DNA of 64,000 nt, from contig JAUCBJ010009072.1 in NCBI GenBank assembly GCA_032718475.1, forward strand, positions 1 to 64,000, given 5' to 3'. Both the position numbers and the translations under genes were made by a program. Each line of letters opens with the position of its first letter. The first letter of the stretch is position 1. This DNA is from Nemertoderma westbladi (taxonomy: Eukaryota; Animalia; Xenacoelomorpha). The notes under the pieces are model-generated. The model saw nothing but the letters and a program-made list of their open reading frames with translations. It had not been told where the DNA came from and made no database searches. This document shows, one piece after another, positions 594-63,045 of this stretch.

Positions 594-797
594 GGGTGTA
601 AACTCTACGCCGACAACCAACGCCGACACCCTTTATTCAAAAAAAAATCAATGTAAATTTTAAATTGAGGGAAAGGAACAGGTTACAGCAGTGGAAGGTT
701 AACTAAAACAATAAACGAGAGTGACTAACTCAGGTTACATTTTCATATTTGCTGTTGTCGACAGTGGATGTCGGCTATCGGCGTAGCGTTTACACCC
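594..797. mobile_element. 204-bp MITE with 9-bp TSD (Mutator-like); duplicate at 3229-3432
   Basis: TIRs GGGTGTAAACTCTACGCCGA.../...TCGGCGTAGCGTTTACACCC. Perfect direct repeat GGGGCGAGC at 585-593 and 798-806. Superfamily inferred from G-rich termini and the 9-bp TSD. Confidence 0.8.
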
Positions 798-4537: not shown

Positions 4538-4959
4538 AGATATCGTCGGTAAAAAGGCAAAAGGGCATTTGGTAAAAAGGCATTATGCATGGGGATTCCT
4601 GGCAATATGTCCTCCACTTTCTGGCGGAATATTAAAGCCTCATGTGATTTTTGCGCAAAAATATTGCATTTTTTCGGCAATTTTTCGGGTGAAAAAGAGC
4701 ATATTGTACATTATGTGCACTAAGGGCATATTTTGATAGTACCATTGCCACTAACTTATATATCGCTCCTAGCATGTCAAGTAGGCCTACTATGATATAC
4801 TGTAGAACTTATCAAAGAGATTTCACCAGATACCAAATATGTATATTAAATTTGGTTGAACCAATAAATACTTACAGTATAAGTATTTTATTTTATATTT
4901 TAGTGTCTCCTGAATAATTATTTTATCGAATTCCCTTTTGCCTTTTCCCGACGATATCT
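4538..4959. mobile_element. MITE-like element bounded by ~30-bp inverted repeats
   Basis: AGATATCGTCGGTAAAAAGGCAAAAGGG (4538) versus CCCTTTTGCCTTTTCCCGACGATATCT (ends 4959). No TSD established. Confidence 0.5.
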
Positions 4960-9319: not shown

Positions 9320-9464
9320 TTAGTAACAACCCTCCCTCCAAGTTTGGTCATCTCGTGATTGTCCAGAGTTTGTCCACCCTCTGTTAGATCCAGGGATTGG
9401 ACGGAAACTGTATGAAGGAGAGTTTGTGACGTCATCGCTGTGTGGTGGTGTAACTGGGAGCATT
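9320..9464 (-). CDS. Minus-strand gene, exon 11 of 11 found (terminal coding exon): MLPVTPPHSDD...DDQTWREGCY*
   Basis: Acceptor TTTTTTTCCTTAG. Phase 2 matches the exon ending at 29674. Open to TAA at 9322-9320. Confidence 0.65.
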
Positions 9465-11273: not shown

Positions 11274-11329
11274 TAATATTTGAGTTACCAATGAATCAGT
11301 TGTCCTAATATTTGAGTTACTAATAAATC
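11274..11329. repeat. Two orphan monomers of the 32/33-bp minisatellite (true left edge of the array)
   Basis: TAATATTTGAGTTACCAATGAATCAGTTGTCCTAATATTTGAGTTACTAATAAATC matches the array unit. Confidence 0.9.
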
Positions 11330-29098: not shown

Positions 29099-29463
29099 AC
29101 ATATTTTTCGTTAATGGCTTCATGCTGGAATTTTGAAAGAAAAAACAGCAATGGAAATCAGTTGGCCAGTGATTAAACACTATTATGGGTTGAGGCCCAG
29201 CGATTTATAATTAAACAATCTTAATTCGTGAGTAATATTCATATAACATGCGTAAATGTATACTTTATTTAACCAGTTCGATTCACATTGGGGGAAAGGT
29301 TAGCCTAGCCAATGTTTAATCATGCATTAAAGTTGGAAAATAGTGATCACCCAAACCTGGGAGTTGTAGTTAGTTGTAGGTTCCATCCTCGTAGTTAGAA
29401 ACTCTGTCAAACAAATTACCATATCGAGTATATAATATATATATAATGTAGTTTAGTGACCAG

Positions 29464-32874: not shown

Positions 32875-32991
32875 CTGTTGTGTATAAATGGAGTGGCAGC
32901 GAAAATAATAACCTGATCTTAAATAGGGCTAGAATAATGCGAATGCCGCTAGTTAATGTAAAAATTAAACATTACCAGGGAGGGATTAGTA

Positions 32992-34290
32992 CGGAGCCCC
33001 TAAAGGGACATGAGAAAAAAATATATTTTTTTTCGCTAACTCGTGCGAACGACTTAGTATGTCGTGCGAACGACTTACTAAGTCGTGCGAACGACATACT
33101 AAGTCGTGCGAACGACTTACTAAGTCGTGCGAACGACTTAACTAACTCGTGCGAACGACTTAGTAAGTCGTGCGAACGACTTACTAAGTCGTGCGAACGA
33201 CTTACTAAGTCGTGCGAACGACTTAACTAACTCGTGCGAACGACTTAGTAAGTCGTTCGAACGACTTACTAACTGTACTTTGATTGGCTAAATAATACTG
33301 GCAATAAAAGCACAACATTTTTAGCGGGTTTTTCAATTCAATCTACAGCATTGTTGTTATACAGCAGCAGTGTTATACTCGTTCAACCAAATCATTTTCG
33401 GGAATATCCATCAATGCACCCACTGGCTTCATTAGGGATGTTACGCATTACTTATTCGAATTAATTTTATTAAGAACGAGCGTAAGCGACTGAGTGAAAT
33501 ATGAAACGAGAGCCTGAAAGTGAAATACGGGTACGTACTTTATTTAAATCGAATATTGTGGTGGAGTCACAATATTGTACAATACTCTAAATAGTAGGAC
33601 CTATCTCACCTCCCCGCAAAACCTGAGATTTCGACTACAGCTGTTCGATACAATAGTGAGATGGGAATGTTGCTTAGCAACACAGCAACAACACCTGACA
33701 CTATTATTAGCTTATCTAACAGCGCTGACCGTAGATAATACTGCTATTTACTGAATAAGTTAAAGTAAAATTAATATGTTAAAGATATTATAATTTGCTA
33801 CAATACAGTATGTCGGTTGTATTGTCGGCCTAAGTTAAAGTACGTCGATATTAACAGAGCGCGTTCAGCCATTGAAAATAATATTTTCAACCAATAATGC
33901 CATCAACAAATGCTGTAGATTGAATTGAAAATCCCGCTAAAAAAGTTGTACTTTCATTACCAGTATTATTTAGCCAATCAAAGTAAAGTTAGTAAGTCGT
34001 TCGCACGAGTTAGTAAGTCGTTCGCACGCGTTAGTTAAGTCGTTCGCACGACTTAGTAAGTCGTTCGCACGACTTAGTAAGTCGTTCGCACGACTTAGTA
34101 AGTCGTTCGCACGACTTAGTATGTCGTTCGCACGACTTAGTTAAGTCGTTCGCACGACTTAGTAAGTCGTTCGCACGACTTAGTAAGTCGTTCGCACGAC
34201 TTAGTAAGTCGTTCGCACGACATACTAAGTCGTTCGCACGAGTTAGCGAAAAAAAATATTTTTTTTTCTCATGTCCCTTTAGGGGCTCCG
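32992..34290. mobile_element. 1.3-kb MITE with ~370-bp TIRs containing 21-bp hairpin arrays, TA-flanked
   Basis: TA|CGGAGCCCCTAAAGGGACATGAG ... CTCATGTCCCTTTAGGGGCTCCG|TA. Arrays of CGTGCGAACGACTTACTAAGT at ~33036-33270 and, inverted, at ~33988-34247. Confidence 0.9.
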
Positions 34291-34677
34291 TAGATTAGTA
34301 TTAGGGAACATAAAATTTGAGGAAAACTAATGTTTTATATATTCAAAAATTACCTACAACATTACTGACTCGGGTGATTTTAACGTAGTCAAGAAATTAG
34401 AATGGCCAGTTTTCATCTAGACGTAATATGTCGCTGTCCGCAACTGTATCTCAACTACACCACCAACCACCAGAACCAACAACCAGATCCTATAACATTT
34501 ATTAAGTACAATCCATACCGGTTGATATCGCCCAATCAATGAATGGCTGATGACAACAATTAATTAGTAAGACAATGATATCGAGGGTTTGGACCAATAC
34601 ACGATCAGTATGAAGGACCATTCATGACGGAGGGCCAGACTGAGAGATAAACAACCAACCTTGGCGCCTTGGGACTT

Positions 34678-36515
34678 TCAGGGTGTGGAGAGGTGAAGAT
34701 TGATAACGATAAGGTATATCAGCTGGGGAGAAGGTTGATTGTCAGCGGAAACAGAGGTGGTTGAGTTGTGGGTTGTTGGTGTAGAACTGGGAGATGGTGG
34801 GGGTACGGGAGGAATGGAATTAGAGTTGGGGTTGGAAGGAGGGGAGGGTGGGAGTTCGAGTTGAGAATATGAACTAATTGATTCTGTGTTAGGATTGTTC
34901 GTATTGAGTAGGAGTTGCATTGAAGCTGTATTGTCTAACACATTGGGGGGAGGGTATGAAGACGATACACTTGCTGTACTAGATTGTGGTTTACGTTTGG
35001 TATTTGTTTGGGGTTCTTTCAAGGCACTTGATAACAGCAGTGTTTGGGTACTGAGAGGCTGTATTTCTCGGGTACTGGGTGGCTGTATTTCTCGGGTACC
35101 GGGTGTCTGTATTTCTCGGGTACTGGGTGGCTGTATTTCTCGGGTACTGGGTGGCTGTATTTCTCGGGTACTGGGTGGCTGTATTTCTCGGGTACTGGGT
35201 GGCTGGAGTTTTTGGGTACTGGTTGGCTGGAGTTTTTGTGTACTGGGTGGCTGTATTTCTCGACTACTGGGTGGCTGGAATGTTTGGGCACTGGTTGGCT
35301 GGAGTTTTTGTAGCTTTTGGGTACTGGGTGGCAGTTTCGTAGGTTTTGGCGGGTTAATGGTTTGTGGTGAACTGCGTGATTGGGTTAGTCTCTGGGTGTT
35401 TGGTATAGGTAAGCATTGGGCAGCGCGCTGTTTTGGACTGGAGGTATACGAGGGTTTAGGAGAAGATATTTCAGATAAATTCGGGTTGGACTTATTAGGC
35501 GTCATTGCTTTTTTATGCCGTGGCAGTACGGGAGAGGGTAGACGTAAGGAATGAGTACTGGTCGCCATGGTACCCAGATCGAGACGATTCTGGTTACGTC
35601 GGGTTTGTACTGGCGAACGCGGATAGACACGCGAATTCGGGTTTGGATTAACAGCTTGTACGATTCGAGTGGAAGATTTATCATTTAGATAAGCTGCGAG
35701 AGGGATGGATGAACAATTTTGTGTTTTACTTGTATCTGTTATTTGGGAAGAAAGAGGTACAACCGGTTCCACGGTATTTTTGAGGGTTTCAGTGGCCGAC
35801 GAGTCAATGATATTAATAGTTGTTGGAGTCGGGCCGAGACTATCGATAATACAGCCAGGTTTGGTCGTGGGAGAGAGGTCTTGGGTATTAGATTTCTGTT
35901 TAATGGTTGTGGATTCTTTTTCATTAATAGGTGGTTCATTGGTTGTAGATACGTCATGTGGATTGGAATGCATTGCTTGAGAAGTAGAAACGGGTTCATT
36001 GGTTGTAGGTACTTGGGAAGTAGAAACGGGTTCATTGGTTGTAGGTACTTGGGAAGTAGAAACGGGTTCATTGGTTGTAGGTACTTGGGAAGTAGAAACG
36101 GGTTCATTGGTTGTAGGTACTTGGGAAGTAGAAACGGGTTCATTGGTTGTAGGTACTTGGGAAGTAGAAACGGGTTCATTGGTTGTAGGTACTTGGGAAG
36201 TAGAAACGGGTTCATTGGTTGTAGGTACTTGAGAAGTAGAAACGGGTTCATTGGTTGTCGTGGAATCTTTTGCAATAATAATCGATTCAATAACAGAGGT
36301 GGTGTTATTTGAACTAAGAATAGGGCCAGTGAAGGATGTGTTATTGAATTCAAACACAGATTTTGGAGTGGCGGAATCCTTAAACAGAGGGGTGGAATCC
36401 TTAAACAAGCTTTCATATGTGCGACGTCCTTCCATATTTTTACAATCGGAATCTTGTGTAACACAGGGAGGAGAAGGAGATGCGCTATTCGAAATATTTC
36501 GACTTATTAGTGGAC
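34678..36515 (-). CDS. Candidate large alternative last exon of the minus-strand gene; Ser/Thr/Pro-rich, ~610 aa
   Basis: Lies in the 637-codon ORF, which is mostly non-repetitive. Strong acceptor TCTTTCTCTCTCTCTTATATTACAG at 36516 in phase 1, matching exon 6. Stop at 34678; minus-strand AATAAA at 34498-34503. Confidence 0.6.
35045..35335. repeat. 24-bp in-frame tandem repeat (~12 copies; PPSTREIQ/PPSTQKLQ on the minus strand)
   Basis: Unit GGCTGTATTTCTCGGGTACTGGGT and variants. Confidence 0.9.
35976..36259. repeat. 36-bp in-frame tandem repeat (8 copies; TTNEPVSTSQVP on the minus strand)
   Basis: GAAGTAGAAACGGG recurs every 36 bp from 35981 to 36233. Confidence 0.95.
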
Positions 36516-36811
36516 CTGTAATATAAGAGAGAGAGAAAGATCTCTCTAGCAGAAGAGAAATAATTGGAGAGTGATCATAATTGAAATTCACCCCAGTCGA
36601 ATAAGATTCTATTCTAATAGAGAAAATAACTAAGTTAAGATCTAAATTTGTCCAGGAATACCATTAAATAACAGGGATTGATGTATATAGTTACGCAGAG
36701 AAAAATATGAATGTTAGCAAGTACTACTACAGCATTAGTACTAAAGTAATAAATACGTATCAACTCAATCTAGTAGTAATTAGTTTAATAAGAAAGTTAC
36801 AGTTTACTAAC

Positions 36812-36978
36812 TCATTCTAGGTTTTGTGTAGGTATCGTAATTGTGCAATGGGCGTAGTTGGTCGTCTCCAGCTGTCCAGGCCTCTCGTCTTGAGTGTCCA
36901 GACCCCGAGTCTGGTACGCGGGGACCTTCAGCCGAACTGCCTCCATACATCTGTCGTTCACGCGACCCTGAATGTCGC
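36812..36978 (-). CDS. Minus-strand gene exon 6: RHSGSRERQMYGG...LHNYDTYTKPRM
   Basis: Acceptor GTTTATTTCCAG, donor TGA|GTTAGT, 167 bp, phase 2 to 1. Confidence 0.7.
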
Positions 36979-37154
36979 CTGGAAATAAACCAACACAAAC
37001 ATGAATTTAAAGAAAACTTATTGAAATCTTGAAACACGAGAAGCGACATTTTGTACAAAAAATCATCAATTAATTTTTTTAATGAGGCAGAGGCTAACGA
37101 CCACTATAATTGAGCGTATAATACGCTTTGAACCGCGTACTCTCGTATTAGTAT

Positions 37155-37500
37155 ACACCATCGACCATCCATACACCATCGACCATGACCCGTAATATAA
37201 TGTTATTTTCAGATGACACATTTTCATGATTAAACTTTGAAAGACAACCAGTTCAACTCACCGTCGAGGAGCCGGAATTTTCGATTTTATAAGTGTTTTA
37301 AAAAGTGCACCATTCGTATCACTGCCATTCTTCACATTAGTCATGATTTATTTCAATATCGTTAGAAAGTTTGCGTTACAACTACAAGAATTCCAAATTT
37401 GTAACAATATATCTGAATTTCGATGAGAAACAGCTGAGATATCTAGGCGTCCAAACATTGCAAGAATTATCGTTCGCTGGAGGCTATTTATTTATTTAAT
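37155..37500. mobile_element. Diverged single arm of the foldback MITE family seen at 1972-2909
   Basis: Shares CCATGACCCGTAATATA, AGCCGGAATTTTCGATTT, TGCCATTCTTCAC and ATTGCAAGAATTAT with the reverse complement of 2485-2909. Confidence 0.75.
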
Positions 37501-37633
37501 AGAATAAAATATCCAAGCAGATAAAAAACCATTTGAAGTTGGTAGAGTTTGGTAAAATGGATCGTATGTAGACTATATATATCTTCTATGAAAATCTTGG
37601 TATAATTATAATATAATTACCGGTATTATTTAA

Positions 37634-38336
37634 GGGGGTTTTAGTATTTTCGGTCTATATTTTGGGGAACAAACATTTTGTGCTTGACAAAGGGTACCAG
37701 TTACAAAATCGGTTCTAGAACATAAAAATTGCCATGTTCTAGAAAACCAATACCCACGATTATTGTAGCCCAAAAGGTGCTGATCATTTTGGCATATGTT
37801 TGATCACAATTGAGTAAAAAATTCAGGTAGTAATGAATTTAGTGATGAAAAATGTCAAAATCGACAAACTGAGAATATGTTGATTTATACAGAGACTCAT
37901 GATCTGATCAGCTATAAATATACCGTTGTTTTTGTTTATACAAATATTATTTGCCTTTTTGGACTCTTCTGTTTCCCGTTCCATGGGGAAATTATTTTAT
38001 TTTTCATATTTTAACGATGGAAATATTGAAAATTGTCAAAATTTTGGAAAAAAGTTTTTAATTTTTTTATATATATAAATATTTTCATCGTTAAAATATG
38101 TGTTTTTGAAAAATTGTAAAAAAATGAAAAATTTTTTCAAATTTTTTTTTATATTTAAAAAATGTAAATAAAATTTTCAAACTTTAATAAGTGCGGTTTT
38201 GTGGCGAAAAAACACTCAACTTGTGAAAACCGATGTAACAACATGAAAGACCTGTCAAACTACAAAAATGGTATAATTTTTTTGGAAATTTTATAAATTT
38301 TCGACAATTTCACTTTCATTCTGGGTAAAATACCCC
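37634..38336. mobile_element. Kolobok-like non-autonomous element (TTAA-flanked)
   Basis: TTAA|GGGGGTTTTA ... TAAAATACCCC|TTAA, with internal inverted repeat CATATTTTAACGATG / CATCGTTAAAATATG. Superfamily inferred from the TTAA site and purine-start termini. Confidence 0.55.
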
Positions 38337-38406
38337 TTAAATACATTGATATAGAAAATATAAAAAGATTTCATCCACGCATACAGAAGTACGTTAGCGA
38401 ACTCAC

Positions 38407-38556
38407 CTTTGTCTATGCCGTGGTCCAGTTAGGTTAGGATTGTTGTACATTCCCTCGTACGCGTCGTATATACCTTGTTCCATAGGAACTCGTCTATAGC
38501 GGGGTTCTTCCTCGTAACCCCTATTCGCCGGGGTATCCCGTCGACTTGTGTAGTAC
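38407..38556 (-). CDS. Minus-strand gene exon 5: YYTSRRDTPANRGYEEEPRY...NLTGPRHRQ
   Basis: Acceptor TTGGTCCATCAG, donor AAG|GTGAGT, 150 bp, phase 2 to 2, open. Confidence 0.75.
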
Positions 38557-39009
38557 CTGATGGACCAATTAAGGAACTAACATTACCTGACCGCCTATAA
38601 ATTACGTATCGCAATGTCGGGTTTGTGGGAGAGTGATTGATTACCAAAATGTATAATTAAATGTTTTAACAATAAAAATTCCATCATATTGATGTAGATT
38701 AAATAAAGCATTGAAAACAAGTTGCTTCTGTAGTATATTTGTCACATTCCTACTGTGTGGGGGGGGGGGGGGGGGGGGGGGTTGATTTTTCTTACATTGA
38801 GTTTCTTTAGCAAACAGTACACTTCGCAGGGAGCCTGATACAGCCTGTTGTGTAGAACATGTCAAGTAGCATCTTTATCGCTTTATCTTTATCTTTATCT
38901 TTCTTTTATTTTTTTTGAAACAACTAACTTTCGGGTTTTCGGTTTCCGATATTATATTTGAAAAGTAGGACTTCCGGCCTATCCATTACTGCTGTATATT
39001 CGACCGAGG

Positions 39010-39987: not shown

Positions 39988-40973
39988 ATGGCTGAATTAA
40001 TAAAACTTCATTTTGGAGCTTCGATCCCTTCGGTTGGATTAGGTACGTTGAAGATCGCGGCTGGAGAGGTTGGGAGGGCAGTAGCAACTGCGATAGAGTT
40101 GGGCTACCGGCATATCGATTGCGCTTACTCGTACCGCAACGAGAAGCAGGGGAGGTTCTGAACGACGTGTTTAACGACCCCTTCAAGGGCGTCTCCAGAG
40201 TCGACATGTTCCTCACGTCGAAACTCTGGAACAGTCACCATCACCCAGGCGACGTCGAGGAATACTGCAAGAGGAGCATCTCGAATCTGCGAAGCGATTA
40301 CATCGATCTGTACCTGATGCACTGGCCGATGGCGTATAAACGAGGAGACGTTATCTTCCCGAAAGCGCCAGACGGTACAGTAGAAGGACTAGACGTAGAT
40401 TACTTAGTTACCTATAAGGCGATGGAGGAGCTTGTAGATAAAGGTTTCTGTAAACACATCGGAGTCAGTAATTTCAATTTACAACAGTTGAAACGAGTCG
40501 TGGAAAATTCGAGAATTAAGCCGAGCGCGTTGCAGGTTGAATGCCATCCGTACCTGAACCAATCGGAGCTGCTGACGTACTGCCAGTCCCAGGGGATCGT
40601 ACTGGAGGCCTACTCACCATTGGGCAGCCCAGACAGACCGGGGGCGGGGGACTCTACCGATGACGTCACGCCCTTACTGAAACATCCCGATATAGCGAGT
40701 TTAGCTGCTTGGATAGGGAGGAGTGTGGCCCAGGTGCTAATCCGGTTCCAAGTGCAGCGAGGAGTGGTGGTGCTCCCCAAATCGGTTAACCCCGATAGAC
40801 TCAAGGAGAATGTCAATGTATTCGACTTTGAACTCGATGAGGAAGCTATGACGACACTGATGGGACTGCATTGTAACAGAAGGTACATTCTACCGAGATT
40901 CAAGAATTCCCAAGGCGTCTTTGTCAATAGAGACACAGGACGCAAATATTACCCCTTCCAAGGTGATAACTAA
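39988..40973 (+). pseudogene. Intronless aldo-keto reductase (AKR1-like) with one frameshift at ~40148-40153; pseudogene or assembly error
   Basis: ATG at 39988. Motifs [54 protein letters not shown] and VLPKS are present, and the catalytic Asp/Tyr/Lys/His are intact. ORFs 39970-40161 and 40119-40973 overlap in different frames. AATAAA signals occur ~55-80 nt after the stop. Confidence 0.9.
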
Positions 40974-42055: not shown

Positions 42056-43430
42056 TTTTTACACCCCTTCCCGGATCCAGTATCAATTTGTAATTAACCT
42101 GAATCCGCGTTTTACACCCCTTCCCGGATCCAGTGACATTTTGAAATTAACCTGAATCCGCGTTTTACACCCCTTCCCGGATCCAGTATCACTTTGTAAT
42201 TAACCTGAATCCGCGTTTTACACCCCTTCCCGGATCCAGTATCACTATGTAATTAACCTGAATCCGCGTTTTACACCCCTTCCCGGATCCAGTGACATTT
42301 TGAAATTAACCTGAATCCGTGTTTTACACCCCTTCCCGGATCCAGTATCACTTTGTAATTAACCTGAATCCGCGTTTTACACCCCTTCCCGGATCCAGTA
42401 TCACTTTGTAATTAACCTGAATCCGCGTTTTACACCCCTACCCGGATCCAGTGACATTTTGAAATTAACCTGAATCCGTGTTTTACACCCCTTCCCGGAT
42501 CCAGTATCACTTTGTAATTAACCTGAATCCGCGTTTTACACCCCTTCCCGGATCCAATAACACTTTGTAATTAACCTGAATCCGTGTTTTACACCCCTTC
42601 CCGGATCCAGTATCACTTTGTAATTAACCTGAATCCGCGTTTTACACCCATTCCCGGATCCAATAACACTTTGTAATTAACCTGAATCCGCGTTTTACAC
42701 CCCTTCCCGGATCCAGTATCACTATGTAATTAACCTGAATCCGCGTTTTACACCCCTTCCCGGATCCAGTGACATTTTGAAATTAACCTGAATCCGTGTT
42801 TTACACCCCTTCCCGGATCCAGTATCACTTTGTAATTAACCTGAATCCGCGTTTTACACCCCTTCCCGGATCCAGTATCACTTTGTAATTAACCTGAATC
42901 CGCGTTTTACACCCCTACCCAGATCCAGTGACATTTTGAAATTAACCTGAATCCGTGTTTTACACCCCTTCCCGGATCCAGTATCACTTTGTAATTAACC
43001 TGAATCCGCGTTTTACACCCCTTCCCGGATCCAATAACACTTTGTAATTAACCTGAATCCGTGTTTTACACCCCTTCCCGGATCCAGTATCACTTTGTAA
43101 TTAACCTGAATCCGCGTTTTACACCCATTCCCGGATCCAATAACACTTTGTAATTAACCTGAATCCGCGTTTTACACCCCTTCCCGGATCCAGTGACATT
43201 TTGAAATTAACCTGAATCCGCGTTTTACTCCCCTTCCCGGATCAGATAACACTTTGTAATAAACATGAATCCGTATTTTACACCCAATCCCGGATTCAGT
43301 AGAAATATGAATCCGCGTTTTACACTCCGTTCAGGATTTAGCCTAAAACATGAATTCGCGCTTTACACTCCTTTCCGGATCTGAAAAAAAAGCCAATCCG
43401 CGTTTTACACTCGGTTACGGATTCGGTAAA
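42056..43430. repeat. 53-bp minisatellite, ~26 copies
   Basis: Unit CCGCGTTTTACACCCCTTCCCGGATCCAGTATCACTTTGTAATTAACCTGAAT; degenerates after ~43240. Confidence 0.95.
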
Positions 43431-43675: not shown

Positions 43676-46600
43676 ATGTACTTTTCTTTACTCACCTTCC
43701 CGACCCCCCATCCAGTAGTTCCCTAGATGTACTTTACTTTACTCACCTTCCCGACCCCCCATCCAGTAGTTCCCTAGATGTACTTTTCTTTACTCACCTT
43801 CCCGACCCATCCAGTAGTTCCCTAGATGTACTTTTCTTTACTCACCTTCCCGACCCCCCATCCAGTAGTTCCCTAGATGTACTTTTCTTTACTCACCTTC
43901 CCGACCCATCCAGTAGTTCCCTAGATGTACTTTTCTTTACTCACCTTCCCGACCCCCCATCCAGTAGTTCCCTAGATGTACTTTTCTTTACTCACCTTCC
44001 CGACCCATCCAGTAGTTCCCTAGATGTACTTTTCTTTACTCACCTTCCCGACCCTCCATCCAGTAGTTCCCTAGATGTACTTTTCTTTACTCACCTTCCC
44101 GACCCCCCATCCAGTAGTTCCCTAGATGTACTTTTCTTTACTCACCTTCCCGACCCATCCAGTAGTTCCCTAGATGTACTTTTCTTTACTCACCTTCCCG
44201 ACCCTCCATCCAGTAGTTCCCTAGATGTACTTTTCTTTACTCACCTTCTCGACCCTCCATCCAGTAGTTCCCTAGATGTACTTTTCTTTACTCACCTTCC
44301 CGACCCATCCAGTAGTTCCCTAGATGTACTTTTCTTTACTCACCTTCCCGACCCTCCATCCAGTAGTTCCCTAGATGTACTTTTCTTTACTCACCTTCCC
44401 GACCCCCCATCCAGTAGTTCACTAGATGTACTTTTCTTTACTCACCTTCCCGACCCTCCATCCAGTAGTTCCCTAGATGTACTTTTCTTTACTCACCTTC
44501 CCGACCCTCCATCCAGTAGTTCCCTAGATGTACTTTTCTTTACTCACCTTCCCGACCCTCCATCCAGTAGTTCCCTAGATGTACTTTTCTTTACTCACCT
44601 TCCCGACCCTCCATCCAGTAGTTCCCTAGATGTACTTTTCTTTACTCACCTTCCCGACCCATCCAGTAGTTCCCTAGATGTACTTTTCTTTACTCACCTT
44701 CCCGACCCCCCATCCAGTAGTTCCCTAGATGTACTTTTCTTTACTCACCTTCCCGACCCTCCATCCAGTAGTTCCCTAGATGTACTTTTCTTTACTCACC
44801 TTCCCGACCCATCCAGTAGTTCCCTAGATGTACTTTTCTTTACTCACCTTCCCGACCCCCCATCCAGTAGTTCCCTAGATGTACTTTTCTTTACTCACCT
44901 TCCCGACCCTCCATCCAGTAGTTCCCTAGATGTACTTTTCTTTACTCACCTTCCCGACCCCCCATCCAGTAGTTCCCTAGATGTACTTTTCTTTACTCAC
45001 CTTCCCGACCCCCATCCAGTAGTTCCCTAAGATGTACTTTTCTTTACTCACCTTCCCGACCCCCCATCCAGTAGTTCCCTAGATGTACTTTTCTTTACTC
45101 ACCTTCCCGACCCTCCATCCAGTAGTTCCCTAGATGTACTTTTCTTTACTCACCTTCCCGACCCCCCATCCAGTAGTTCCCTAGATGTACTTTTCTTTAC
45201 TCACCTTCCCGACCCCCCATCCAGTAGTTCCCTAGATGTACTTTTCTTTACCCACCTTCCCGACCCTCCATCCAGTAGTTCCCTAGATGTACTTTTCTTT
45301 ACTCACCTTCCCGACCCTCCATCCAGTAGTTCCCTAGATGTACTTTTCTTTACTCACCTTCCCGACCCATCCAGTAGTTCCCTAGATGTACTTTTCTTTA
45401 CTCACCTTCCCGACCCATCCAGTAGTTCCCTAGATGTACTTTTCTTTACTCACCTTTCCGACCCCCATCCAGTAGTTCACTAGATGTACTTTTCTTTACT
45501 CACCTTCCCGACCCTCCATCCAGTAGTTCCCTAGATGTACTTTTCTTTACTCACCTTCCCGACCCTCCATCCAGTAGTTCCCTAGATGTACTTTTCTTTA
45601 CTCACCTTCCCGACCCCATCCAGTAGTTCCCTAGATGTACTTTTCTTTACTCACCTTCCCGACCCCCATCCAGTAGTTCCCTAGATGTACTTTTCTTTAC
45701 TCACCTTCCCGACCCTCCATCCAGTAGTTCCCTAGATGTACTTTTCTTTACTCACCTTCCCGACCCTCCATCCAGTAGTTCCCTAGATGTACTTTTCTTT
45801 ACTCACCTTCCCGACCCTCCATCCAGTAGTTCCCTAAGATGTACTTTTCTTTACTCACCTTCCCGACCCTCCATCCAGTAGTTCCCTAGATGTACTTTTC
45901 TTTACTCACCTTCCCGACCCATCCAGTAGTTCCCTAGATGTACTTTTCTTTACTCACCTTCCCGACCCCCCATCCAGTAGTTCCCTAGATGTACTTTTCT
46001 TTACTCACCTTCCCGACCCTCCATCCAGTAGTTCCCTAGATGTACTTTTCTTTACTCACCTTCCCGACCCCCCATCCAGTAGTTCCCTAGATGTACTTTT
46101 CTTTACTCACCTTTCCGACCCCCATCCAGTAGTTCCCTAAGATGTACTTTTCTTTACTCACCTTCCCGACCCCCCATCCAGTAGTTCCCTAGATGTACTT
46201 TTCTTTACTCACCTTCCCGACCCTCCATCCAGTAGTTCCCTAGATGTACTTTTCTTCACTCACCTTCCCGACCCTCCATCCAGTAGTTCCCTAGATGTAC
46301 TTTTCTTTACTCACCTTTCCGACCCCCCATCCAGTAGTTCCCTAGATGTACTTTTCTTTACTCACCTTCCCGACCCCCCATCCAGTAGTTCCCTAGATGT
46401 ACTTTTCTTTACCCACCTTTCCGACCCTCCATCCAGTAGTTCCCTAGATGTACTTTTCTTTACTCACCTTCCCGACCCTCCATCCAGTAGTTCCCTAGAT
46501 GTACTTTTCTTTACTCACCTTCCCGACCCCATCCAGTAGTTCCCTAGATGTACTTTTCTTTACTCACCTTCCCGACCCATCCAGTAGTTCCCTAGATGTA

Positions 46601-49585
46601 CTTTTCTTTACTCACCTTTCCGACCCCCATCCTTTAGTTCACTAGATGTACTTTTCTTTACTCACCTTCCCGACCCATCCAGTAGTTCCCTAGATGTACT
46701 TTTCTTTACTCACCTTTCCGACCCCCATCCAGTAGTTCCCTAGATGTACTTTTCTTTACTCACCTTCCCGACCCTCCATCCAGTAGTTCCCTAAGATGTA
46801 CTTTTCTTTACTCACCTTCCCGACCCTCCATCCAGTAGTTCCCTAGATGTACTTTTCTTTACTCACCTTCCCGTCCCCCCATCCAGTAGTTCCCTAGATG
46901 TACTTTTCTTTACTCACCTTCCCGACCCTCCATCCAGTAGTTCCCTATAGATGTACTTTTCTTTACTCACCTTCCCGACCCATCCAGTAGTTCCCTAGAC
47001 GTACTTTTCTTTACTCACCTTCCCGACCCATCCAGTAGTTCCCTTAGATGTACTTTTCTTTACTCACCTTCCCGACCCCCCATCCAGTAGTTCCCTAGAT
47101 GCACTTTTCTTTACTCACCTTCCCGACCCCCCATCCAGTAGTTCCCTAGATGTACTTTTCTTTACTCACCTTCCCGACCCTCCATCCAGTAGTTCCCTAG
47201 ATGTACTTTTCTTTACTCACCTTCCCGACCCTCCATCCAGTAGTTCCCTAGATGTACTTTTCTTTACTCACCTTCCCGACCCTCCATCCAGTAGTTCCCT
47301 AGATGTACTTTTCTTTACTCACCTTCCCGACCCTCCATCCAGTAGTTCCCTAGATGTACTTTTCTTTAATCACCTTCCCGACCCATCCAGTAGTTCCCTA
47401 GATGTACTTTTCTTTACTAACCTTCCCGACCCTCCATCCAGTAGTTCCCTAGATGTACTTTTCTTTACTCACCTTCCCGACCCTCCATCCAGTAGTTACC
47501 TAGATGTACTTTTCTTTACTCACCTTCCCGACCCTCCATCCAGTAGTTCCCTAGATGTACTTTTCTTTACTCACCTTCCCGACCCCCCATCCAGTAGTTC
47601 CCTAGATGTACTTTTCTTTACTCACCATCTCGACCCCCCATCCAGTAGTTCCCTAGATGTACTTTTCTTTACTCACCTTCCCGACCCTCCATCCAGTAGT
47701 TCCCTAGATGTACTTTTCTTTACTCACCTTCCCGACCCCCCATCCAGTAGTTCCCTAGATGTACTTTTCTTTACTCACCTTCCCGACCCCCCATCCAGTA
47801 GTTCCCTAGATGTACTTTTCTTTACTCACCTTCCCGACCCATCCAGTAGTTCCCTAGATGTACTTTTCTTTACTCACCTTCCCGACCCCCCATCCAGTAG
47901 TTCCCTAGATGTACTTTTCTTTACTCACCTTCCCGACCCTCCATCCAGTAGTTCCCTAGATGTACTTTTCTTTACTCACCTTCCCGACCCTCCATCCAGT
48001 AGTTCCCTAGATGTACTTTTCTTTACTCACCTTCCCGACCCATCCAGTAGTTCCCTAGATGTACTTTTCTTTACTCACCTTCCCGACCCCCATCCAGTAG
48101 TTCACTAGATGTACTTTTCTTTACTCACTTTTCCGACCCCCCATCCAGTAGTTCCCTAGATGTACTTTTCTTTACTCACCTTCCCGACCCATCCAGTAGT
48201 TCCCTAGATGTACTTTTCTTTACTCACCTTTCCGACCCTCCATCCAGTAGTTCCCTAGATGTACTTTTCTTTACTCACCTTTCCGACCCCCCATCCAGTA
48301 GTTCCCTAGATGTACTTTTCTTTACTCACCTTTCCGACCCCCCATCAAGTAGTTCCCTAGATGTACTTTTCTTTACTCACCTTCCCGACCCATCCAGTAG
48401 TTCCCTAGATGTACTTTTCTTTACTCACCTTTCCGACCCTCCATCCAGTAGTTCCCTAGATGTACTTTTCTTTACTCACCTTTCCGACCCCCCATCCAGT
48501 AGTTTCCTAGATGTACTTTTCTTTACTCACCTTTCCGACCCCCCATCCAGTAGTTCCCTAGATGTACTTTTCTTTACTCACCTTCTCGACCCTCCATCCA
48601 GTAGTTCCCTAGATGTACTTTTCTTTACTCACCTTCCCGACCCATCCAGTAGTTCCCTAGATGTACTTTTCTTTACTCACCTTCCCGACCCCCCATCCAG
48701 TAGTTCCCTAGATGTACTTTTCTTTACTCACCTTTCCGACCCCCCATCCAGTAGTTTCCTAGATGTACTTTTCTTTACTCACCTTTCCGACCCCCCATCC
48801 AGTAGTTCCCTAGATGTACTTTTCTTTACTCACCTTCCCGACCCCCCATCCAGTAGTTTCCTAGATGTACTTTTCTTTACTCACCTTTCCGACCCCCCAT
48901 CCAGTAGTTCCCTAGATGTACTTTTCTTTACTCACCTTCCCGACCCTCCATCCATTAGTTTCCTAGATGTACTTTTCTTTACTCACCTTTCCGACCCCCC
49001 ATCCAGTAGTTTCCTAGATGTACTTTTCTTTACTCACCTTCCCGACCCTCCATCCAGTAGTTCCCTAGATGTACTTTTCTTTACTCACCTTCCCGACCCC
49101 CCATCCAGTAGTTCCCTAGATGTACTTTTCTTTACTCACCTTCCCGACCCCCCATCCAGTAGTTCCCTAGATGTACTTTTCTTTACTCACCTTCCCGACC
49201 CCCCATCCAGTAGTTCCCTAGATGTACTTTTCTTTACTCACCTTCCCGACCCCCCATCCAGTAGTTCCCTAGATGTACTTTTCTTTACTCACCTTTCCGA
49301 CCCCCCATCCAGTAGTTCCCTAGATGTACTTTTCTTTACTCACCTTCCCGACCCCCCATCCAGTAGTTCCCTAGATGTACTTTTCTTTACTCACCTTCCC
49401 GACCCCCCATCCAGTAGTTCCCTAGATGTACTTTTCTTTACTCACCTTCCCGACCCCCCATCCAGTAGTTCCCTAGATGTACTTTTCTTTACTCACCTTC
49501 CCGACCCCCCATCCAGTAGTTCCCTAGATGTACTTTTCTTTACTCACCTTTCCGACCCCCCATCCAGCAGTTCCCTAGATGTACT
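43676..49585. repeat. 48/51-bp minisatellite (~115-120 copies) made of an exon end plus splice donor
   Basis: Plus-strand unit ATGTACTTTTCTTTACTCACCTTCCCGACCC(C/T)CCATCCAGTAGTTCCCTAG; on the minus strand ...GGTCGGGAAG|GTGAGTAAAGAAAAGTACAT. Confidence 0.97.
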
Positions 49586-49682
49586 CCGACGTCGTATATG
49601 TCTCGTTCTGGGTTCATTGTGGCCATCAACATAACCCGGATCGTCAACATCATATGAGAAACTCCTTCGCCGTTCTCGCGAT
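49548..49682 (-). CDS. Minus-strand gene exon 4: SRERRRSFSYDVDDPGYVDGHNEPRTRHIRRRSTSRELLDGGSE
   Basis: Acceptor TATCATTGATTTAG, donor AAG|GTGAGT, 135 bp, phase 2 to 2, matching exons 3 and 5. Its last 38 nt are the first repeat unit. Confidence 0.75.
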
Positions 49683-49880: not shown

Positions 49881-52800
49881 GGTTCAAGGACGAAGGTCCG
49901 AATAGGACGAAGGTCCGAATGAGACCGAGGTCCGAAATACGTATGACGAAGGTCCGAAACAACAGGACGAAGGTCCGAATAGGACGAAGGTCCGAAATAC
50001 GTATGACGAAGGTCCGAAACAACAGGACGAAGGTCCGAATGGGACGAAGGTCCGAATAGGACGAAGGTCCGAAACAACAGGACGAAGGTCCGAATGGGAC
50101 GAAGGTCCGAATAGGACGAAGGTCCGAAACAACAGGACGAAGGTCCGGATGGGACGAAGGTCCGAACAGGACGAAGGTCCGAAACAAAAGGACGAAGGTC
50201 CGAATAGGACGAAGGTCCGAAACAACAGGACGAAGGTCCGAATAGGACGAAGGTCCGAATGAGACGAAGGTCCGAAATACGTATGACGAAGATCCGAAAC
50301 AACAGGAAGAAGGTCCGAATAGGACGAAGGTCCGAAACAACAGGACGAAGGTCCGAATAGGACGAAGGTCCGAATAGGACGAAGGTCCGAATAGGACGAA
50401 GGTCCGAAACAACAGGACGAAGGTCCGAATGGGACGAAGGTCCGAATAGGACGAAGGTCCGAAACAACAGGACGAAGGTCCGAATAGGACGAAGGTCCGA
50501 AACAACAGGACGAAGGTCCGAATAGGACGAAGGTCCGAATAGGACGAAGGTCCGAATGAGACGAAGGTCCGAAATACGTATGACGAAGATCCGAAACAAC
50601 AGGAAGAAGGTCCGAATAGGACGAAGGTCCGAAACAACAGGACGAAGGTCCGAATAGGACGAAGGTCCGAATAGGACGAAGGTCCGAATAGGACGAAGGT
50701 CCGAAACAACAGGACGAAGGTCCGAATGGGACGAAGGTCCGAATAGGACGAAGGTCCGAAACAACAGGACGAAGGTCCGAATAGGACGAAGGTCCGAATA
50801 GGACGAAGGTCCGAAACAACAGGACGAAGGTCCGAATAGGACGAAGGTCCGAATGCGACTGAGGTCCGAAATACGTATGACGAAGATCCGAAACAACAGG
50901 AAGAAGGTCCGAATGCGACTGAGGTCCGAAATACGTATGACGAAGATCCGAAACAACAGGAAGAAGGTCCGAAACAACAGGACGAAGGTCCGAATAGGAC
51001 GAAGGTCCGAATGAGACGGAGGTCCGAATGAGACGGAGGTCCGAATGGGACGAAGGTCCGAATAGGACGAAGGTCCGAAACAACAGGACGAAGGTCCGAA
51101 TGAGACGAAGGTCCGAATGGGACGAAGGTCCGAATAGGACGAAGGTCCGAATGAGACGGAGGTCCGAATGAGACGGAGGTCCGAATGGGACGAAGGTCCG
51201 AATAGGACGAAGGTCCGAAACAACAGGACGAAGGTCCAAATGAGACGAAGGTCCGAATGGGACGAAGGTCCGAATAGGACGAAGGTCCGAAACAACAGGA
51301 AGAAGGTCCGAATAGGACGAAGGTCCGAATGAGACGGAGGTCCGAATGAGACGGAGGTCCGAATGGGACGAAGGTCCGAATAGGACGAAGGTCCGAAACA
51401 ACAGGACGAAGGTCCGAAACAACAGGACGAAGGTCCGAATAGGACGAAGGTCCGAATGAGACGGAGGTCCGAATGAGACAGAGGTCCGAATAGGACGAAG
51501 GTCCGAAACAACAGGACGAAGGTCCGAATAGGACGAAGGTCCGAATGCGACTGAGGTCCGAAATACGTATGACGAAGATCCGAAACAACAGGAAGAAGGT
51601 CCTAAACAACCTGACGAAGGTCCGAATAGGACGAAGGTCCGAAACAACAGGACGAAGATCCGAATGGGACGAAGGTCCGAATAGGACGAAGGTCCGAAAC
51701 AACAGGACGAAGGTCCGAATAGGACGAAGGTCCGAATGCGACTGAGGTCCGAAATACGTATGACGAAGATCCGAAACAACAGGAAGAAGGTCCTAAACAA
51801 CAGGACGAAGGTCCGAATAGGACGAAGGTCCGAAACAACAGGACGAAGGTCCGAATGGGACGAAGGTCCGAATGGGACGAAGGTCCGAATAGGACGGAGG
51901 TCCGAAACAACAGGACGAAGGTCCGAATGGGACGAAGGTCCGAATAGGACGAAGGTCCGAATGGGACGAAGGTCCGAATGGGACGAAGGTCCGAATAGGA
52001 CGAAGGTCCGAAACAACAGGACGAAGGTCCGAATAGGACGAAGGTCCGAATGCGACTGAGGTCCGAAATACGTATGACGAAGATCCGAAACAACAGGAAG
52101 AAGGTCCTAAACAACAGGACGAAGGTCCGAATAGGACGAATGTCCGAAACAACAGGAAGAAGGTCCGAATAGGACGAAGGTCCGAAACAACAGGACGAAG
52201 GTCCGAATAGGACGAAGGTCCGAATAGGACGAAGGTCCGAATAGGACGAAGGTCCGAAACAACAGGACGAAGGTCCGAATAGGACGAAGGTCCGAAACAA
52301 CAGGACGAAGGTCCGAATGGGACGAAGGTCCGAATGGGACGAAGGTCCGAATGGGACGAAGGTCCGAATAGGACGGAGGTCCGAAACAACAGGACGAAGG
52401 TCCGAATGGGACGAAGGTCCGAATAGGACGAAGGTCCGAAACAACAGGACGAAGGTCCGAATAGGACGAAGGTCCGAATGCGACTGAGGTCCGAAATACG
52501 TATGACGAAGATCCGAAACAACAGGAAGAAGGTCCTAAACAACAGGACGAAGGTCCGAATAGGACGAAGGTCCGAAACAACAGGACGAAGGTCCGAATGG
52601 GACGAAGGTCCGAATGGGACGAAGGTCCGAATAGGACGAAGGTCCGAATAGGACGAAGGTCCGAATAGGACGAAGGTCCGAATAGGACGAAGGTCCGAAA
52701 CAACAGGACGAAGGTCCAAATGAGACGGAGGTCCGAAACACATGAATGTCCGAAACACATATGATGAAAGTTCGAACGGGACGAAGGAAGATAATATTTA

Positions 52801-55059: not shown

Positions 55060-55213
55060 CTAGTTTTGTTTCGCTCCCTGCTGGGAGGCAAGCCGTGCTG
55101 CCTCTCCCGCCGATCCAGTGATTGACTCCTATTGGCCGATTGTTGCTCATCATCTGAAGATCCTCCGAAATCTAAGTTACGCCGTCCACTAATCCTTCTA
55201 GAATCCCTTAGAT
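55060..55213 (-). CDS. Minus-strand gene exon 3: LRDSRRISGRRNLDFGGSSDDEQQSANRSQSLDRRER...RERNKT
   Basis: Acceptor TTGTTGTTTTGCAG, donor TAG|GTTGGT, 154 bp, phase 1 to 2. Confidence 0.75.
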
Positions 55214-56028
55214 CTGCAAAACAACAAGAATTCATATCGGATTCACTTGTCCAGATATATTAATGTACAATAATTCACTTCAAATACTTTGGGAATTAAT
55301 GTATTTTAAATAAACTCTGGATTTGAGGACATCCACTGGTGTGATAATGAAAAAAATCACTTCTGCATATTTTGTAAAGTTATATATTTTACTTATTATC
55401 TCAATGTGTTATGCGTACTTTTGTATTTAGTTCTAGGTTAAACAATGAAGGGATCAGATCACGGCCTTATGTTACTCTATCTATACTGTTGTAGTGTTAC
55501 TAGGCCCCGAATAAATCACTTCGCTATAAAAGTTACCTTTCTCTTGCATTTTGGCCAAAACGTGAAGATCAGTAACGTCATTGAGTTTATTTATACCGAG
55601 ATTATAATCCTCTTCGTCTTTATATCCCCAGGATTTCTTAGGAGTTTCATCTAAATAAATAAATACAATCTAGTTTCAATTAATTCAATTCAATTCAACA
55701 TTAAAATACAACTAAAACTTCTAGAGATAGTAGTTTATAAACGCAGACAAGTGTCAAAATGAGAACTTAATCCCAAACTACTGGAAACCTTGATAAAAAA
55801 TAAACAGATTCGTATGCCTAATGAAATTACTTTTGTTTGAGTAACTTTTTAAGTCAATACAATAATTAAATATCAGGTATTACAAATTCATCGACAGCCC
55901 AACCCACTATCGTTGGTATCAGGATTAATTCAACCGATGTTTCGAGATCAGGATCCCGCTTCATAAGAAGGTGAAAAGAAAACTTTCACTATGGAATGGA
56001 AAGGACATTATTACTGAGTATATTAAAT

Positions 56029-59372: not shown

Positions 59373-59524
59373 CATTTGCTAACTCATCGAGTTTAAGAAG
59401 GAAGGCATGTCTGGCAAGGAGCATATGTGGCGTGGGGTTGTCCAAGTCTTGCCGTATGTATTGATAAGGAGAAATGTTCTTCTGCTCAGGGGAAAGATTC
59501 TTCACACCCGGAGACACGAACAAC
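59373..59524 (-). CDS. Minus-strand gene exon 1 of those found (internal exon): LFVSPGVKNLSPEQKNISPYQYIRQDLDNPTPHMLLARHAFLLKLDELAN
   Basis: Acceptor GTTTTGTTTAG, donor ATG|GTGAGT, 152 bp, phase 2 to 1. Composition suggests the end of a folded domain; family not recognised. Confidence 0.75.
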
Positions 59525-61689
59525 CTAAACAAAACATTATCGCATATTATTATACCAAAGACATTAACCGGTATAGACATCATACCTCCAACATTCTATT
59601 GCTCATTGCATCGTTGCTCGTTTTTGTTCACTGTCAGACTGTTGTTCATGGAATCGGAATTGTTTAATTGACATTAAATATAAAAAATAAAATAGAGCTA
59701 ACAATAAGAACATATACAAGAGACACGTATAACCATTATAAACAATGAACATGTGAAAATAGTATGGCTGTATGACGTAAATAACATTTAAAATTATCAA
59801 ATTATACGTACCGGTACCGGTAAGCAAAAAGCAGAATCGGTCACGGTACAGTCGGTCACAGTACAGTCCTGGCTCATAATGGTGTTCGCAAGGGTAATTC
59901 TGTCGTGATCATATCACATCACGGCAGAACTGATGTTGTGATTTTGTAAGATAATAGTGGTGTATCTAATGTCGGGGATAGCCCCAAGAGACAGTTTCCA
60001 TGGGAGTCCCCAATATACAGTAGGGCCTAGATAAGTAGGACGTGTAAAAACACAAGGATGAACTGCACCAAGGGTCATTGTTGCTCGTTCAGTCGCACAC
60101 CTACGCTACCGGTCCGACATACATAACTGCAATAGGTTCCGATACATACAGACATACTGACATACAGAGTCTTATTGCGGTATTTTTACAACGTACTGAC
60201 GTAACCGCGTCAAATAGTTCTCGCCCTCTTCCATCAAACATTATAATAGGCCTACTGTAATACTATAATACCGGTACCAACTTCAAAAATTGCTACCGGT
60301 AACAGAATTCCATGCATACACAATACCGTACCGGTTAATCTTCATTCCACATATGTTTGTATCTCTGGCCTGATCTGCTGATAAAAGCCCTACTGCCCTA
60401 TGCCCTAAACCTAATTGCTGGATTATAAATAAACATGTCAATGTCAAATTGTTAGGGACTAGCGACTAGCTGACTAGCGAGACAGGCAGACAGGCTGACA
60501 GGGGCCTAGTGCCTCTAGGCTGCTGCTGCTAGCTGGCTAGGCCTAATGTTAAACGACAACTAGGCCTACCCTGCTTCCTGCAGTATTGTATAAACTAGGT
60601 AACTGACTAACCACGTATCGTCATCTTCATTTTCCGATTCAGGGAAACTAATCAGTTCCAAACGATCAATAATATCAATATCAGCCATTACCTGTGCTTG
60701 CTGACCGTCTGACTGTCTGACGTTGCCGTACCCACCGACTGACTGGACTGACCGATATACTGCAGTACTGATATTGATATAGGCCTATCAGCCTATCAGC
60801 CTATACCGCTATCAGTCATAATACTGTAATATATTGAATAGGCCTATATATCAGTACCGGTATATCAGATATATATATATCAGTATTCAGTACAGTAAGG
60901 TACAGTGGGTCAGCCTAATCACCCAACTACACCCAACTTTCACCCAACTACACCCAACTACACCCAACTACACCCAACTTTCACCCAACTACACCCAACT
61001 TTCACCCAACTACCACCCAACTACACAGCTACACCCAACTTTCACCGAACTACCACCCAACTACACAGCTACACCCAACTTTCACCAACTACACCCAACT
61101 ATACCACCCATCTACACACAACTCTGCAAATACACCCGACTTCAACGTTCAACACAACAGCATCCAACTTGCACCAAACTATACTGTATGGCACCTATCT
61201 TCCACAAATTACAATATGTACAGTAACAAACTCTGAACTTCTTTGAGGAATTGCTGAGATATGAACTTTTAAAAGTTGCATGTACTCGTGCTGTATTTTG
61301 CCATCACTGCCCTGCAATTATGAAAATAACTAACTAACATTTTATTTTTATTGCAGGTTGATTCTAGAATAATTGATGAATTTAGCAATAAATATACAAA
61401 GGAGAGACACAGAGACTATTGACGAACGATCCAGATACCTATAGATGTCTACACATACCACGCATCAAAACTGCAAACTAAGCTACAGTACAAACTAAAC
61501 TGGCGCTGTGGGATTGCGGTGAAAATGAAAACGGTATTTATACATAGGTGGGTCACCGTCACAGCCTTAACGACGAAATCGCATTATTGGAAACTTCTGC
61601 TGTGGGAATAGCAATGCAGATAATTCGTACAAAGTTAATGGACATAAGTTCTATATTATACAGTATGTTTAATGCAATTATAATAATGT

Positions 61690-62207: not shown

Positions 62208-63045
62208 ACAACGTATTCTAGTGTATAATGTACTTTTATCTCACTTCGGTCCCTCGTTTCAATATTTCACTAACTCGAATATGATAATAACTCGAAATAA
62301 ATTTTCCAGTATTTACTAATTATCATAGTGCGTTAAGGCTCGCCTTTACTACGTGACTCGCATGTTCTCGCTGTTATGCCTCAGAACTAAACATTAGATA
62401 TATTGTACTGTATGTCCTACTCATCTTCACATCCAAAAAAGCGACGTAGATTAGGATTTGTATGGTTTTTGACAATTTTATAATTTGCTTTATAATTTCT
62501 TATTTTCAAAAATCCTGACCTGCGAGAAAGTGGTGAAAGGTAAGTGTAGTTGGGTGGAAGTGAGACAATGTTGAGTGTACTGTAGTTGGGTGATAGTTGG
62601 GTGTAGTTGGGTGGAGAATTGGGTGTAGTTGGGTGAAAGTTGGGTGTTGTTGGGGGTAGTTGGGTGAAAGTTGGGTGTAGTTGGGTGAGAGTTGGGTGGA
62701 AGTGAAGTGTAGTTGGGTGAAAGTGAGTCAAAGTTGAGTGTATTTGGTTGGAGAGTTTGGTGTTCTGTGGGACGAGTCACGCAGTCAGGGCAAGCCTTAG
62801 CGCACAATTGCAATTAGTAAAAATAGGGCAAAATTTCATCTCCAGTCGGTCGTTCTGTCCGCTTGTCTGTCTGTAATGAAAAATTCATTCGTAAGTAACT
62901 TTTGAAGATTTTCGCCAACTGATCCACATTAAAGCCCGATGAGAAACCCCACTTGGGATCCGACTATGTAGCAACATACCTAAAGTGTGTGACATATTAT
63001 TCATTCACATGTGAGAATTTAGCTTGGAAACCTCAATGTTGATCA

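What the first reader, a model, noticed from the sequence alone, without database searches (positions are those of the whole stretch)
43676..49682. Minisatellite built from an exon/intron junction: ~115-120 tandem 5' splice sites behind the real donor
Seen: on the minus strand the 135-bp exon 49682-49548 ends ...AGTACATCTAGGGAACTGCTGGATGGGGGGTCGGAAAG|GTGAGTAAAGAAA. This ~51-nt stretch (exon end plus intron start) is repeated for 5.9 kb, and nearly every copy keeps AAG|GTGAGT. The 7-nt word AGTACAT occurs both in the exon and at the distal intron boundary (plus-strand ATGTACT at 43676 and 49579), a plausible slippage seed. In the exon frame the junction reads AGG TGA, so use of any downstream donor introduces a stop. 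Established: AAG|GTGAGT is a near-perfect U1 snRNP site, and among duplicated 5' splice sites the one nearest the downstream acceptor is often favoured. Inference: the array could act as a copy-number-tunable poison/NMD switch, a U1 sink or a stepwise-splicing ladder, or else the cell must specifically select the first copy.
Basis: partly seen in the sequence, partly recalled or inferred. Interest (0 to 1): 0.85.

Follow-up and report, generated by a model that had tools for sequence, protein, structure and literature searches.

The report
Splice-donor minisatellite in a SLAIN intron
In an animal's SLAIN-family microtubule gene, the last 38 bases of a predicted exon plus its splice signal stand in 117 head-to-tail copies, a large but likely harmless example of a repeat type already known from human and lancelet genes, where the cell mostly keeps using the first signal.

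Summary
A 51-bp unit (38 nt exon end + 13 nt intron start) stands in 117 copies at 43676-49585. All keep GT and 111 keep AAG|GTGAGT. The host is a minus-strand SLAIN-family gene. The 135-nt exon fits its frame and scores as coding. Each of the 116 later donors would stop the protein at residue 231.

The functional readings lack support. Donor positions vary at background rate (5 of 20 variant alleles, 3.5 expected). The unit's AGs lack pyrimidine tracts, so a recursive ladder is unlikely. Tandem arrays fill 47% of the window.

The arrangement is known from human F7, IFI6, CBS, LMNB2 and PDGF, and from lancelet 'mirages'; in the human cases only the first one to three donors are used. No RNA could be examined here. 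These donors are perfect consensus, and perfect sites did compete in F7 minigenes, so some leak is possible.

The scan has noted many such arrays in this genome and others (unchecked). New member of a known kind.

The parts
43676..49585 (-). 51-bp minisatellite, 117 units plus 7 nt; each unit = last 38 nt of exon 6 + first 13 nt of intron 6; fills 53% of the 10,991-nt intron
49548..49682 (-). 135-nt phase 2-2 exon (sixth modelled exon) of the SLAIN-family gene; its last 38 nt are part of unit 1
   Evidence: AG/GT bounded and open in the spliced frame; GC 0.51 against 0.32 upstream; composition score 25.3 against a maximum of 9.0 among 402 open intronic 135-mers; no RNA seen
49539..49550 (-). 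first (authentic) donor AAG|GTGAGT; the strongest U1 pairing among 10 modelled donors (-12.3 kcal/mol); identical over -3..+9 in 110 of 117 copies
49544..49546 (-). TGA at donor +2..+4, in the exon frame; ends the protein at residue 231 if any later donor is used
49579..49585 (-). 7-nt word AGTACAT at the start of unit 1 (candidate slippage seed)
43676..43682 (-). same 7-nt word at the distal edge, followed by unique intron
38407..38556 (-). next exon (150 nt, phase 2-2), acceptor at 38556
59373..59524 (-). exon 2: SLAIN motif, Pfam PF15301 positions 8-47, E 1.5e-5
55537..55650 (-). exon 4: second SLAIN motif, PF15301 positions 130-146, E 0.0038
55060..55213 (-). exon 5, upstream neighbour of the array-bearing exon (phase 2 out)
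60612..60688 (-). first modelled exon; joined to exon 2 it aligns to SLAIN-like P0127; the true start of the gene is not established
9322..9464 (-). last coding exon, ending in W-x-x-G-C-Y-stop like P0127 (W-x-x-G-C-F) and the SLAIN Trp/terminal-Tyr tail

Best explanation
This is a junction-spanning ('mirage') minisatellite: 117 copies of an exon end plus its splice donor in a SLAIN-family gene, likely a tolerated by-product in which the first donor is used and the other 116 stay mostly silent. Origin (inferred): slippage between two 7-nt words 51 nt apart duplicated the exon end and intron start. The repeat turnover that fills much of this window with arrays then expanded and homogenised it. 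Tolerance (inferred from F7 and lancelet data): only copy 1 sits at the end of a whole exon, 135 nt from its acceptor, so exon definition or upstream-first selection picks it. Any product from copy 2 or later carries the in-frame TGA, with further junctions downstream, and would be removed by NMD if this animal has the usual pathway. The coding copy keeps its own bases while the intronic copies drift.
For: Shown here: array anatomy; SLAIN host and an exon that keeps the frame. Donor positions are not protected: 5 of 20 alleles against 3.5 expected, and full protection would have been visible since P(0 of 20)=0.02. The array shows ordinary minisatellite turnover: copy 1 is unique at -21, and the exon-type base at -4 falls from 13 of the first 39 copies to 6 of the last 78, p=0.0009. 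Tandem arrays cover 30,181 of 64,000 bases; of the 8 non-coding-side arrays tested only this one spans a modelled junction. Known: F7, LMNB2 and PDGF use only the first site, IFI6 and CBS the first three; lancelet mirages do not disturb splicing. Earlier notes on this genome mostly report first-donor use at other arrays (unchecked leads, not support).
Against: No RNA was examined, so donor choice is inferred. The donors are perfect consensus, and in F7 minigenes perfect downstream sites took about 70-90% of splicing from a weaker first site; equal perfect sites in series were not tested in the sections read. Later donors are predicted no less accessible than the first (unpaired 0.70-0.76 against 0.55). 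Copies 2-4 would give exons of 186, 237 and 288 nt, which is not prohibitive. The constraint test has only 20 alleles and cannot judge GT alone (0 changes, P=0.45 by chance).
Confidence: 0.8

Rival explanations
1. Leaky or tunable poison donor: copies 2-3 (or more) take a real share of splicing and make a stop-containing mRNA (231 residues, both SLAIN motifs but no C-terminal tail), which lowers or modulates SLAIN output.
For: All 116 later donors give the stop. 110 of 117 are identical perfect sites. Perfect sites competed in F7 minigenes. IFI6 and CBS use two extra sites.
Against: No protection of donor positions. In the known cases only the nearest copies are used, so going from a few copies to 117 should change little. 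A TGA lies inside every GTGA donor after a phase-2 exon, so it needs no selection to be there.
Confidence: 0.11
2. U1 sink, or a recursive-splicing ladder that removes the 11-kb intron in steps.
For: 110 strong U1 sites lie within 5.9 kb and each is preceded by AG. Each intact donor overlaps AGTAAA (113 copies), recalled as a weak poly(A) variant that U1 could mask.
Against: The five AGs of a unit have 20-35% pyrimidines upstream against 55-85% at 11 modelled acceptors. There is no constraint on the sites. The array covers only the first 53% of the intron.
Confidence: 0.03
3. The 135-nt segment is skipped (always or mostly), so the donor array is irrelevant to the mRNA.
For: The exon is symmetrical and skipping it keeps the frame (903 residues open). 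No relative was found for its peptide (0 of 35 candidates). Its acceptor scores 1.8, near the bottom of the modelled sites.
Against: It matches its neighbours in GC and in Arg/Ser/Asp/Glu/Gly content. Only the frame that the gene needs scores high (25.3 against 2.9 and -9.7), and 0 of 402 open intronic windows reach that score. Its donor is the strongest in the gene. The same kind of search also missed the conserved exon 2 (0 of 5 candidates), so the blank is weak.
Confidence: 0.05

Closest known systems
Human F7 intron 7 37-bp VNTR (Borensztajn et al. 2006, PMC1557585; read: abstract, Introduction, one Results section, Discussion), with the IFI6/6-16, CBS intron 13, LMNB2 and PDGF intron 4 cases as summarised in its Introduction (originals not seen)
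   Same: The first unit spans the exon/intron boundary, so the donor is reiterated into the intron as identical pseudo-sites.
   Different: 117 copies against 5-9 (F7), 10-20 (LMNB2, PDGF, CBS) and 25 pseudo-sites (6-16). The unit is mostly exon (38 of 51 nt; F7 4 of 37). The donors are perfect consensus (F7 consensus value 74). Every later donor gives a stop (in F7 two pseudo-sites would not). Donor use was not measured here.
Lancelet 'mirage' minisatellites: Adh3, troponin C, globins BflGb6/BflGb9, PGBD5 (PMC3087553 and PMC3902484; matching passages read, supplements not opened)
   Same: Tandem duplications of an exon-intron boundary in an invertebrate, with edge units excluded from homogenisation; reported not to disturb splicing.
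   Different: Far more copies here (the globin alleles have 3-6). Length instability was not testable here.
SLAIN1/2 family (Pfam PF15301; PMC3115796, passages read)
   Same: Two collinear SLAIN motif matches, a long low-complexity middle, and a Trp plus terminal aromatic tail.
   Different: No N-terminal coiled coil was found in the modelled exons. The 3' end of the large ninth exon is unresolved. No relative close enough to align the array-bearing exon was found.

Membership tests
junction-spanning ('mirage') minisatellite | head-to-tail repeat with a minisatellite-sized unit | tested here: met
   51 bp x 117, 95% matches
junction-spanning ('mirage') minisatellite | terminal unit spans an exon-intron boundary of the host gene | tested here: met
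   unit 1 (49585-49535) covers the modelled donor at 49548/49547; the exon rests on gene model and composition, not RNA
junction-spanning ('mirage') minisatellite | splice signal reiterated in the copies | tested here: met
   117 of 117 keep GT, 111 keep AAG|GTGAGT
junction-spanning ('mirage') minisatellite | edge unit differs from the homogenised interior | tested here: met
   copy 1 unique at -21; gradient of the -4 variant, p=0.0009
junction-spanning ('mirage') minisatellite | normal splicing kept, authentic site dominant | not testable with these tools
   no RNA run could be examined
junction-spanning ('mirage') minisatellite | copy-number polymorphism or somatic instability | not testable with these tools
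   one assembly only
recursive splice sites (ratchet points) | AG|GT with a real pyrimidine tract before the AG (definition recalled) | tested here: not met
   20-35% pyrimidines against 55-85% at 11 modelled acceptors
regulated poison splice site (AS-NMD) | alternative site introduces a premature stop | tested here: met
   116 of 116 later donors stop at residue 231
regulated poison splice site (AS-NMD) | the alternative signal is under purifying selection | tested here: not met
   5 of 20 alleles in 9 of 51 positions; 6/1053 against 23/4680 cells, p=0.81; within-array test only, low power for GT
regulated poison splice site (AS-NMD) | isoform is made and rises on NMD block | not testable with these tools
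   needs RNA
SLAIN family (host gene) | PF15301 match | tested here: met
   two single exons score 25.1 and 17.2 bits, each under the whole-protein cut-off of 27, in collinear order; the joined model aligns to P0127 at E 3e-15 and 4e-5, pairwise
SLAIN family (host gene) | conserved Trp and terminal Tyr | tested here: met
   last exon ends W-x-x-G-C-Y-stop (feature)
SLAIN family (host gene) | N-terminal coiled coil | tested here: inconclusive
   tblastn of P0127 found no such match in the window; the gene's 5' end is not established

The most novel reading that the evidence does not exclude
This animal has a genome-wide process that amplifies exon-intron junctions, donors and acceptors alike, into arrays of hundreds of copies. 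At this locus 110 identical perfect donors leak to a stop-containing isoform, so that array length acts as a heritable dial on the dose of full-length SLAIN.
Probability: 0.1. Interest if true: 0.6.

Novelty: new member of a known kind. Interest (0 to 1): 0.2.

Why it matters
On its own this is one more junction-spanning minisatellite, larger than the published cases read here but smaller than several the scan has noted in the same genome. Its use is as a natural test piece: 110 identical perfect-consensus donors 51 nt apart, each later one marked by a stop and copies 2-5 by a diagnostic base at -4. That tests whether upstream-first selection holds for perfect sites, the one condition under which it weakened in the F7 work. 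The larger question is why this genome carries so many such arrays. That needs a whole-genome count, not this locus.

Tried and rejected
RNA: no RNA holder was listed for 34700-38600, so no reads could be laid; this is no evidence either way. No whole genome is held, so junction enrichment could not be counted. Protein searches with the array-bearing exon (0 of 35 candidates) and with exon 2 (0 of 5) found nothing. The profile search with exon 2 gave 7 hits: five of the six fetched are SLAIN-like, P0121 is an unrelated repetitive protein, and P0122 was not fetched. Higher-order periodicity in the array: the longest repeated run of unit types is 5, reached by 63 of 300 shuffles, so there is none. 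RNA structure hiding the later donors: not predicted. G-quadruplex as the driver: no canonical three-tetrad motif; G4Hunter reaches 1.72 with 22% of windows at 1.2 or more, a lead only. Plus-strand ORFs through the array (up to 527 aa) are repeat translations broken by frameshifts and were rejected as genes. My idea that only donor-side arrays are tolerated was dropped, because earlier notes list acceptor-side arrays in this genome too (unchecked). A second junction array at the 33-bp repeat was tested and is inconclusive. Paper searches (listings) showed no paper on this locus. The library lacks most subscription journals and supplements were not opened.
Full report
Observation. The array is real and as described. 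TRF finds period 51, 117.1 copies and 95% matches at 43676-49585. Splitting it gives 117 whole units and a 7-nt remainder. On the minus strand each unit is the last 38 nt of the 135-nt segment 49682-49548 plus the 13 nt after it. All 117 copies keep GT, 113 keep GTGAGT and 111 keep AAG|GTGAGT. The word AGTACAT opens unit 1 and closes the array. This is what slippage between two short direct repeats would leave, although a leftover partial unit would look the same. The unit has no match longer than 17 nt elsewhere in the window. The mix of 51-, 48- and rarer units with point variants argues against a collapsed or invented assembly, but the copy number rests on one assembly.

Host gene. Eight AG/GT-bounded exons from 60688 to 36812, followed by a large exon at 36515, splice into a frame that is open for 948 residues. 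Two single exons match Pfam SLAIN in collinear order (E 1.5e-5 and 0.0038; each is under the whole-protein cut-off of 27 bits). The joined model aligns to a full-length SLAIN-like protein, P0127, at pairwise E 3e-15 and 4e-5. The last exon ends in W-x-x-G-C-Y-stop, the Trp and terminal Tyr that bind CLIP-170 in SLAIN2 (PMC3115796, passages). The gene's 5' end and the 3' end of the large exon are unresolved. The organism is an animal with no close relative in the protein set: the nested aldo-keto reductase is at most 55% identical to the 120 listed hits.

Is 49682-49548 an exon? It is inferred, not shown. It is phase 2-2 and fits between its neighbours, but skipping it also keeps the frame. It has exon-like GC (0.51 against 0.32 upstream). 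Its required frame scores 25.3 bits on a composition model trained on the three neighbouring exons; the other frames score 2.9 and -9.7, and 0 of 402 open intronic 135-mers (overlapping windows, out of 8105) reach that score. Its donor has the strongest U1 pairing of ten modelled donors. Its acceptor is weak (1.8, leave-one-out); the other ten modelled acceptors score 1.5 to 9.6, apart from one at -8.8. No relative of its peptide was found, but the same search also missed conserved exon 2.

Consequence of later donors. All 116 give a stop at residue 231, from the TGA at +2..+4 of donor 1. The product would keep both SLAIN motifs and lose the C-terminal tail. This stop needs no selection: any GTGA donor after a phase-2 exon has it.

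Tests of function. They do not. Of 20 distinct substitution alleles, 5 fall in positions -3..+6 (3.5 expected) and 3 in GTGAGT (2.4 expected). Per cell the rate is 6/1053 against 23/4680 after setting aside the two common polymorphic positions, p=0.81. Full protection would have been visible (P of 0 = 0.02), but GT alone cannot be judged (0 changes, P=0.45). A recursive ladder needs acceptors, and the five AGs of a unit have 20-35% pyrimidines upstream against 55-85% at 11 modelled acceptors. The array behaves like an ordinary minisatellite: copy 1 carries a private synonymous base, and the exon-type base at -4 fades from 13 of the first 39 copies to 6 of the last 78 (p=0.0009). Tandem arrays fill 47% of the window, and of the eight arrays tested only this one spans a modelled junction.

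Results against my reading. The later donors are not predicted to be hidden by structure (unpaired 0.70-0.76 against 0.55 for donor 1). In F7 minigenes, sites of consensus value up to 91 did not compete with the first site, but perfect sites took about 70-90% from a weaker first site. Here all sites are perfect and equal, a case not tested in the sections I read. A leak at the nearest copies is therefore plausible, as in IFI6 and CBS. No RNA could be examined.

What is known. PMC1557585 (abstract, Introduction, one Results section, Discussion) describes the same arrangement in human F7 and lists 6-16, CBS, LMNB2 and PDGF. Only the first donor, or the first three, are used, and upstream-first selection was shown by mutagenesis. 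Lancelet 'mirages' are the invertebrate counterpart and are reported not to disturb splicing (PMC3087553 and PMC3902484, passages). The second lancelet paper and the weight I give the term came as a lead from earlier scan notes. PMC10078293 (passages) added nothing specific. Earlier notes list many donor-side and acceptor-side arrays in this same genome, up to about 2,100 copies, and in other animals. They are unchecked and I use them only as context. Nothing earlier was noted near this locus or for this sequence.

Verdict. A junction-spanning minisatellite in a SLAIN-family gene, most likely neutral with first-donor use (0.8). A meaningful poison leak (0.11), exon skipping (0.05) and U1-sink or ladder roles (0.03) remain as rivals. 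New member of a known kind, interest 0.2. The genome-wide abundance of such arrays is the more interesting open point and could not be counted here.

Noticed in passing
window 39996-40973 (+): An uninterrupted 325-codon aldo-keto reductase ORF (PF00248, E 8e-45) is nested on the opposite strand inside the same intron as the array; best listed relatives are at most 55% identical. Its start is not established.
   Followed up: partly
window 12389-29124 (-), tail at 11280-11330: A 33-bp array of about 511 copies (one 100-N gap) starts 27 nt after a fair acceptor at 29124. An in-frame 39-nt mini-exon is possible, which would make it a second junction array, but its donor is weak and such acceptors occur about 0.2 times per 40 nt. 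A LINE-like fragment (read by eye) appears to separate the array from its last units.
   Followed up: partly
window 32990-34292: Foldback element with 236-nt arms, 98% complementary, built on 21-bp repeats, with a 6-bp direct repeat on both flanks; likely a non-autonomous DNA transposon.
   Followed up: partly
window 34678-36515 (-): A large Ser/Thr/Pro-rich coding exon of the SLAIN gene holds two in-frame coding minisatellites (36 bp x 7.9 and 24 bp x about 10); its donor is unresolved.
   Followed up: partly
window 1-1971 and 2612-4606: A 2-kb direct duplication, 98.7% identical; a recent tandem duplication or an assembly duplicate.
   Followed up: partly
window 60919-61141 and 62574-62762: Two arrays of a 10/11-bp unit in opposite orientation upstream of the gene, possibly the arms of another foldback element.
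   Followed up: no
window 49887-52740, 42057-43301, 5432-7318: Further arrays (17/38/55-bp, 53-bp and 31-bp units) that touch no modelled junction; a fragment like the 17-bp unit recurs near 54940.
   Followed up: partly
window, SLAIN gene donors: Five of ten modelled donors begin GTT, and they pair weakly with U1; this may be a lineage feature or may partly reflect model error.
   Followed up: no
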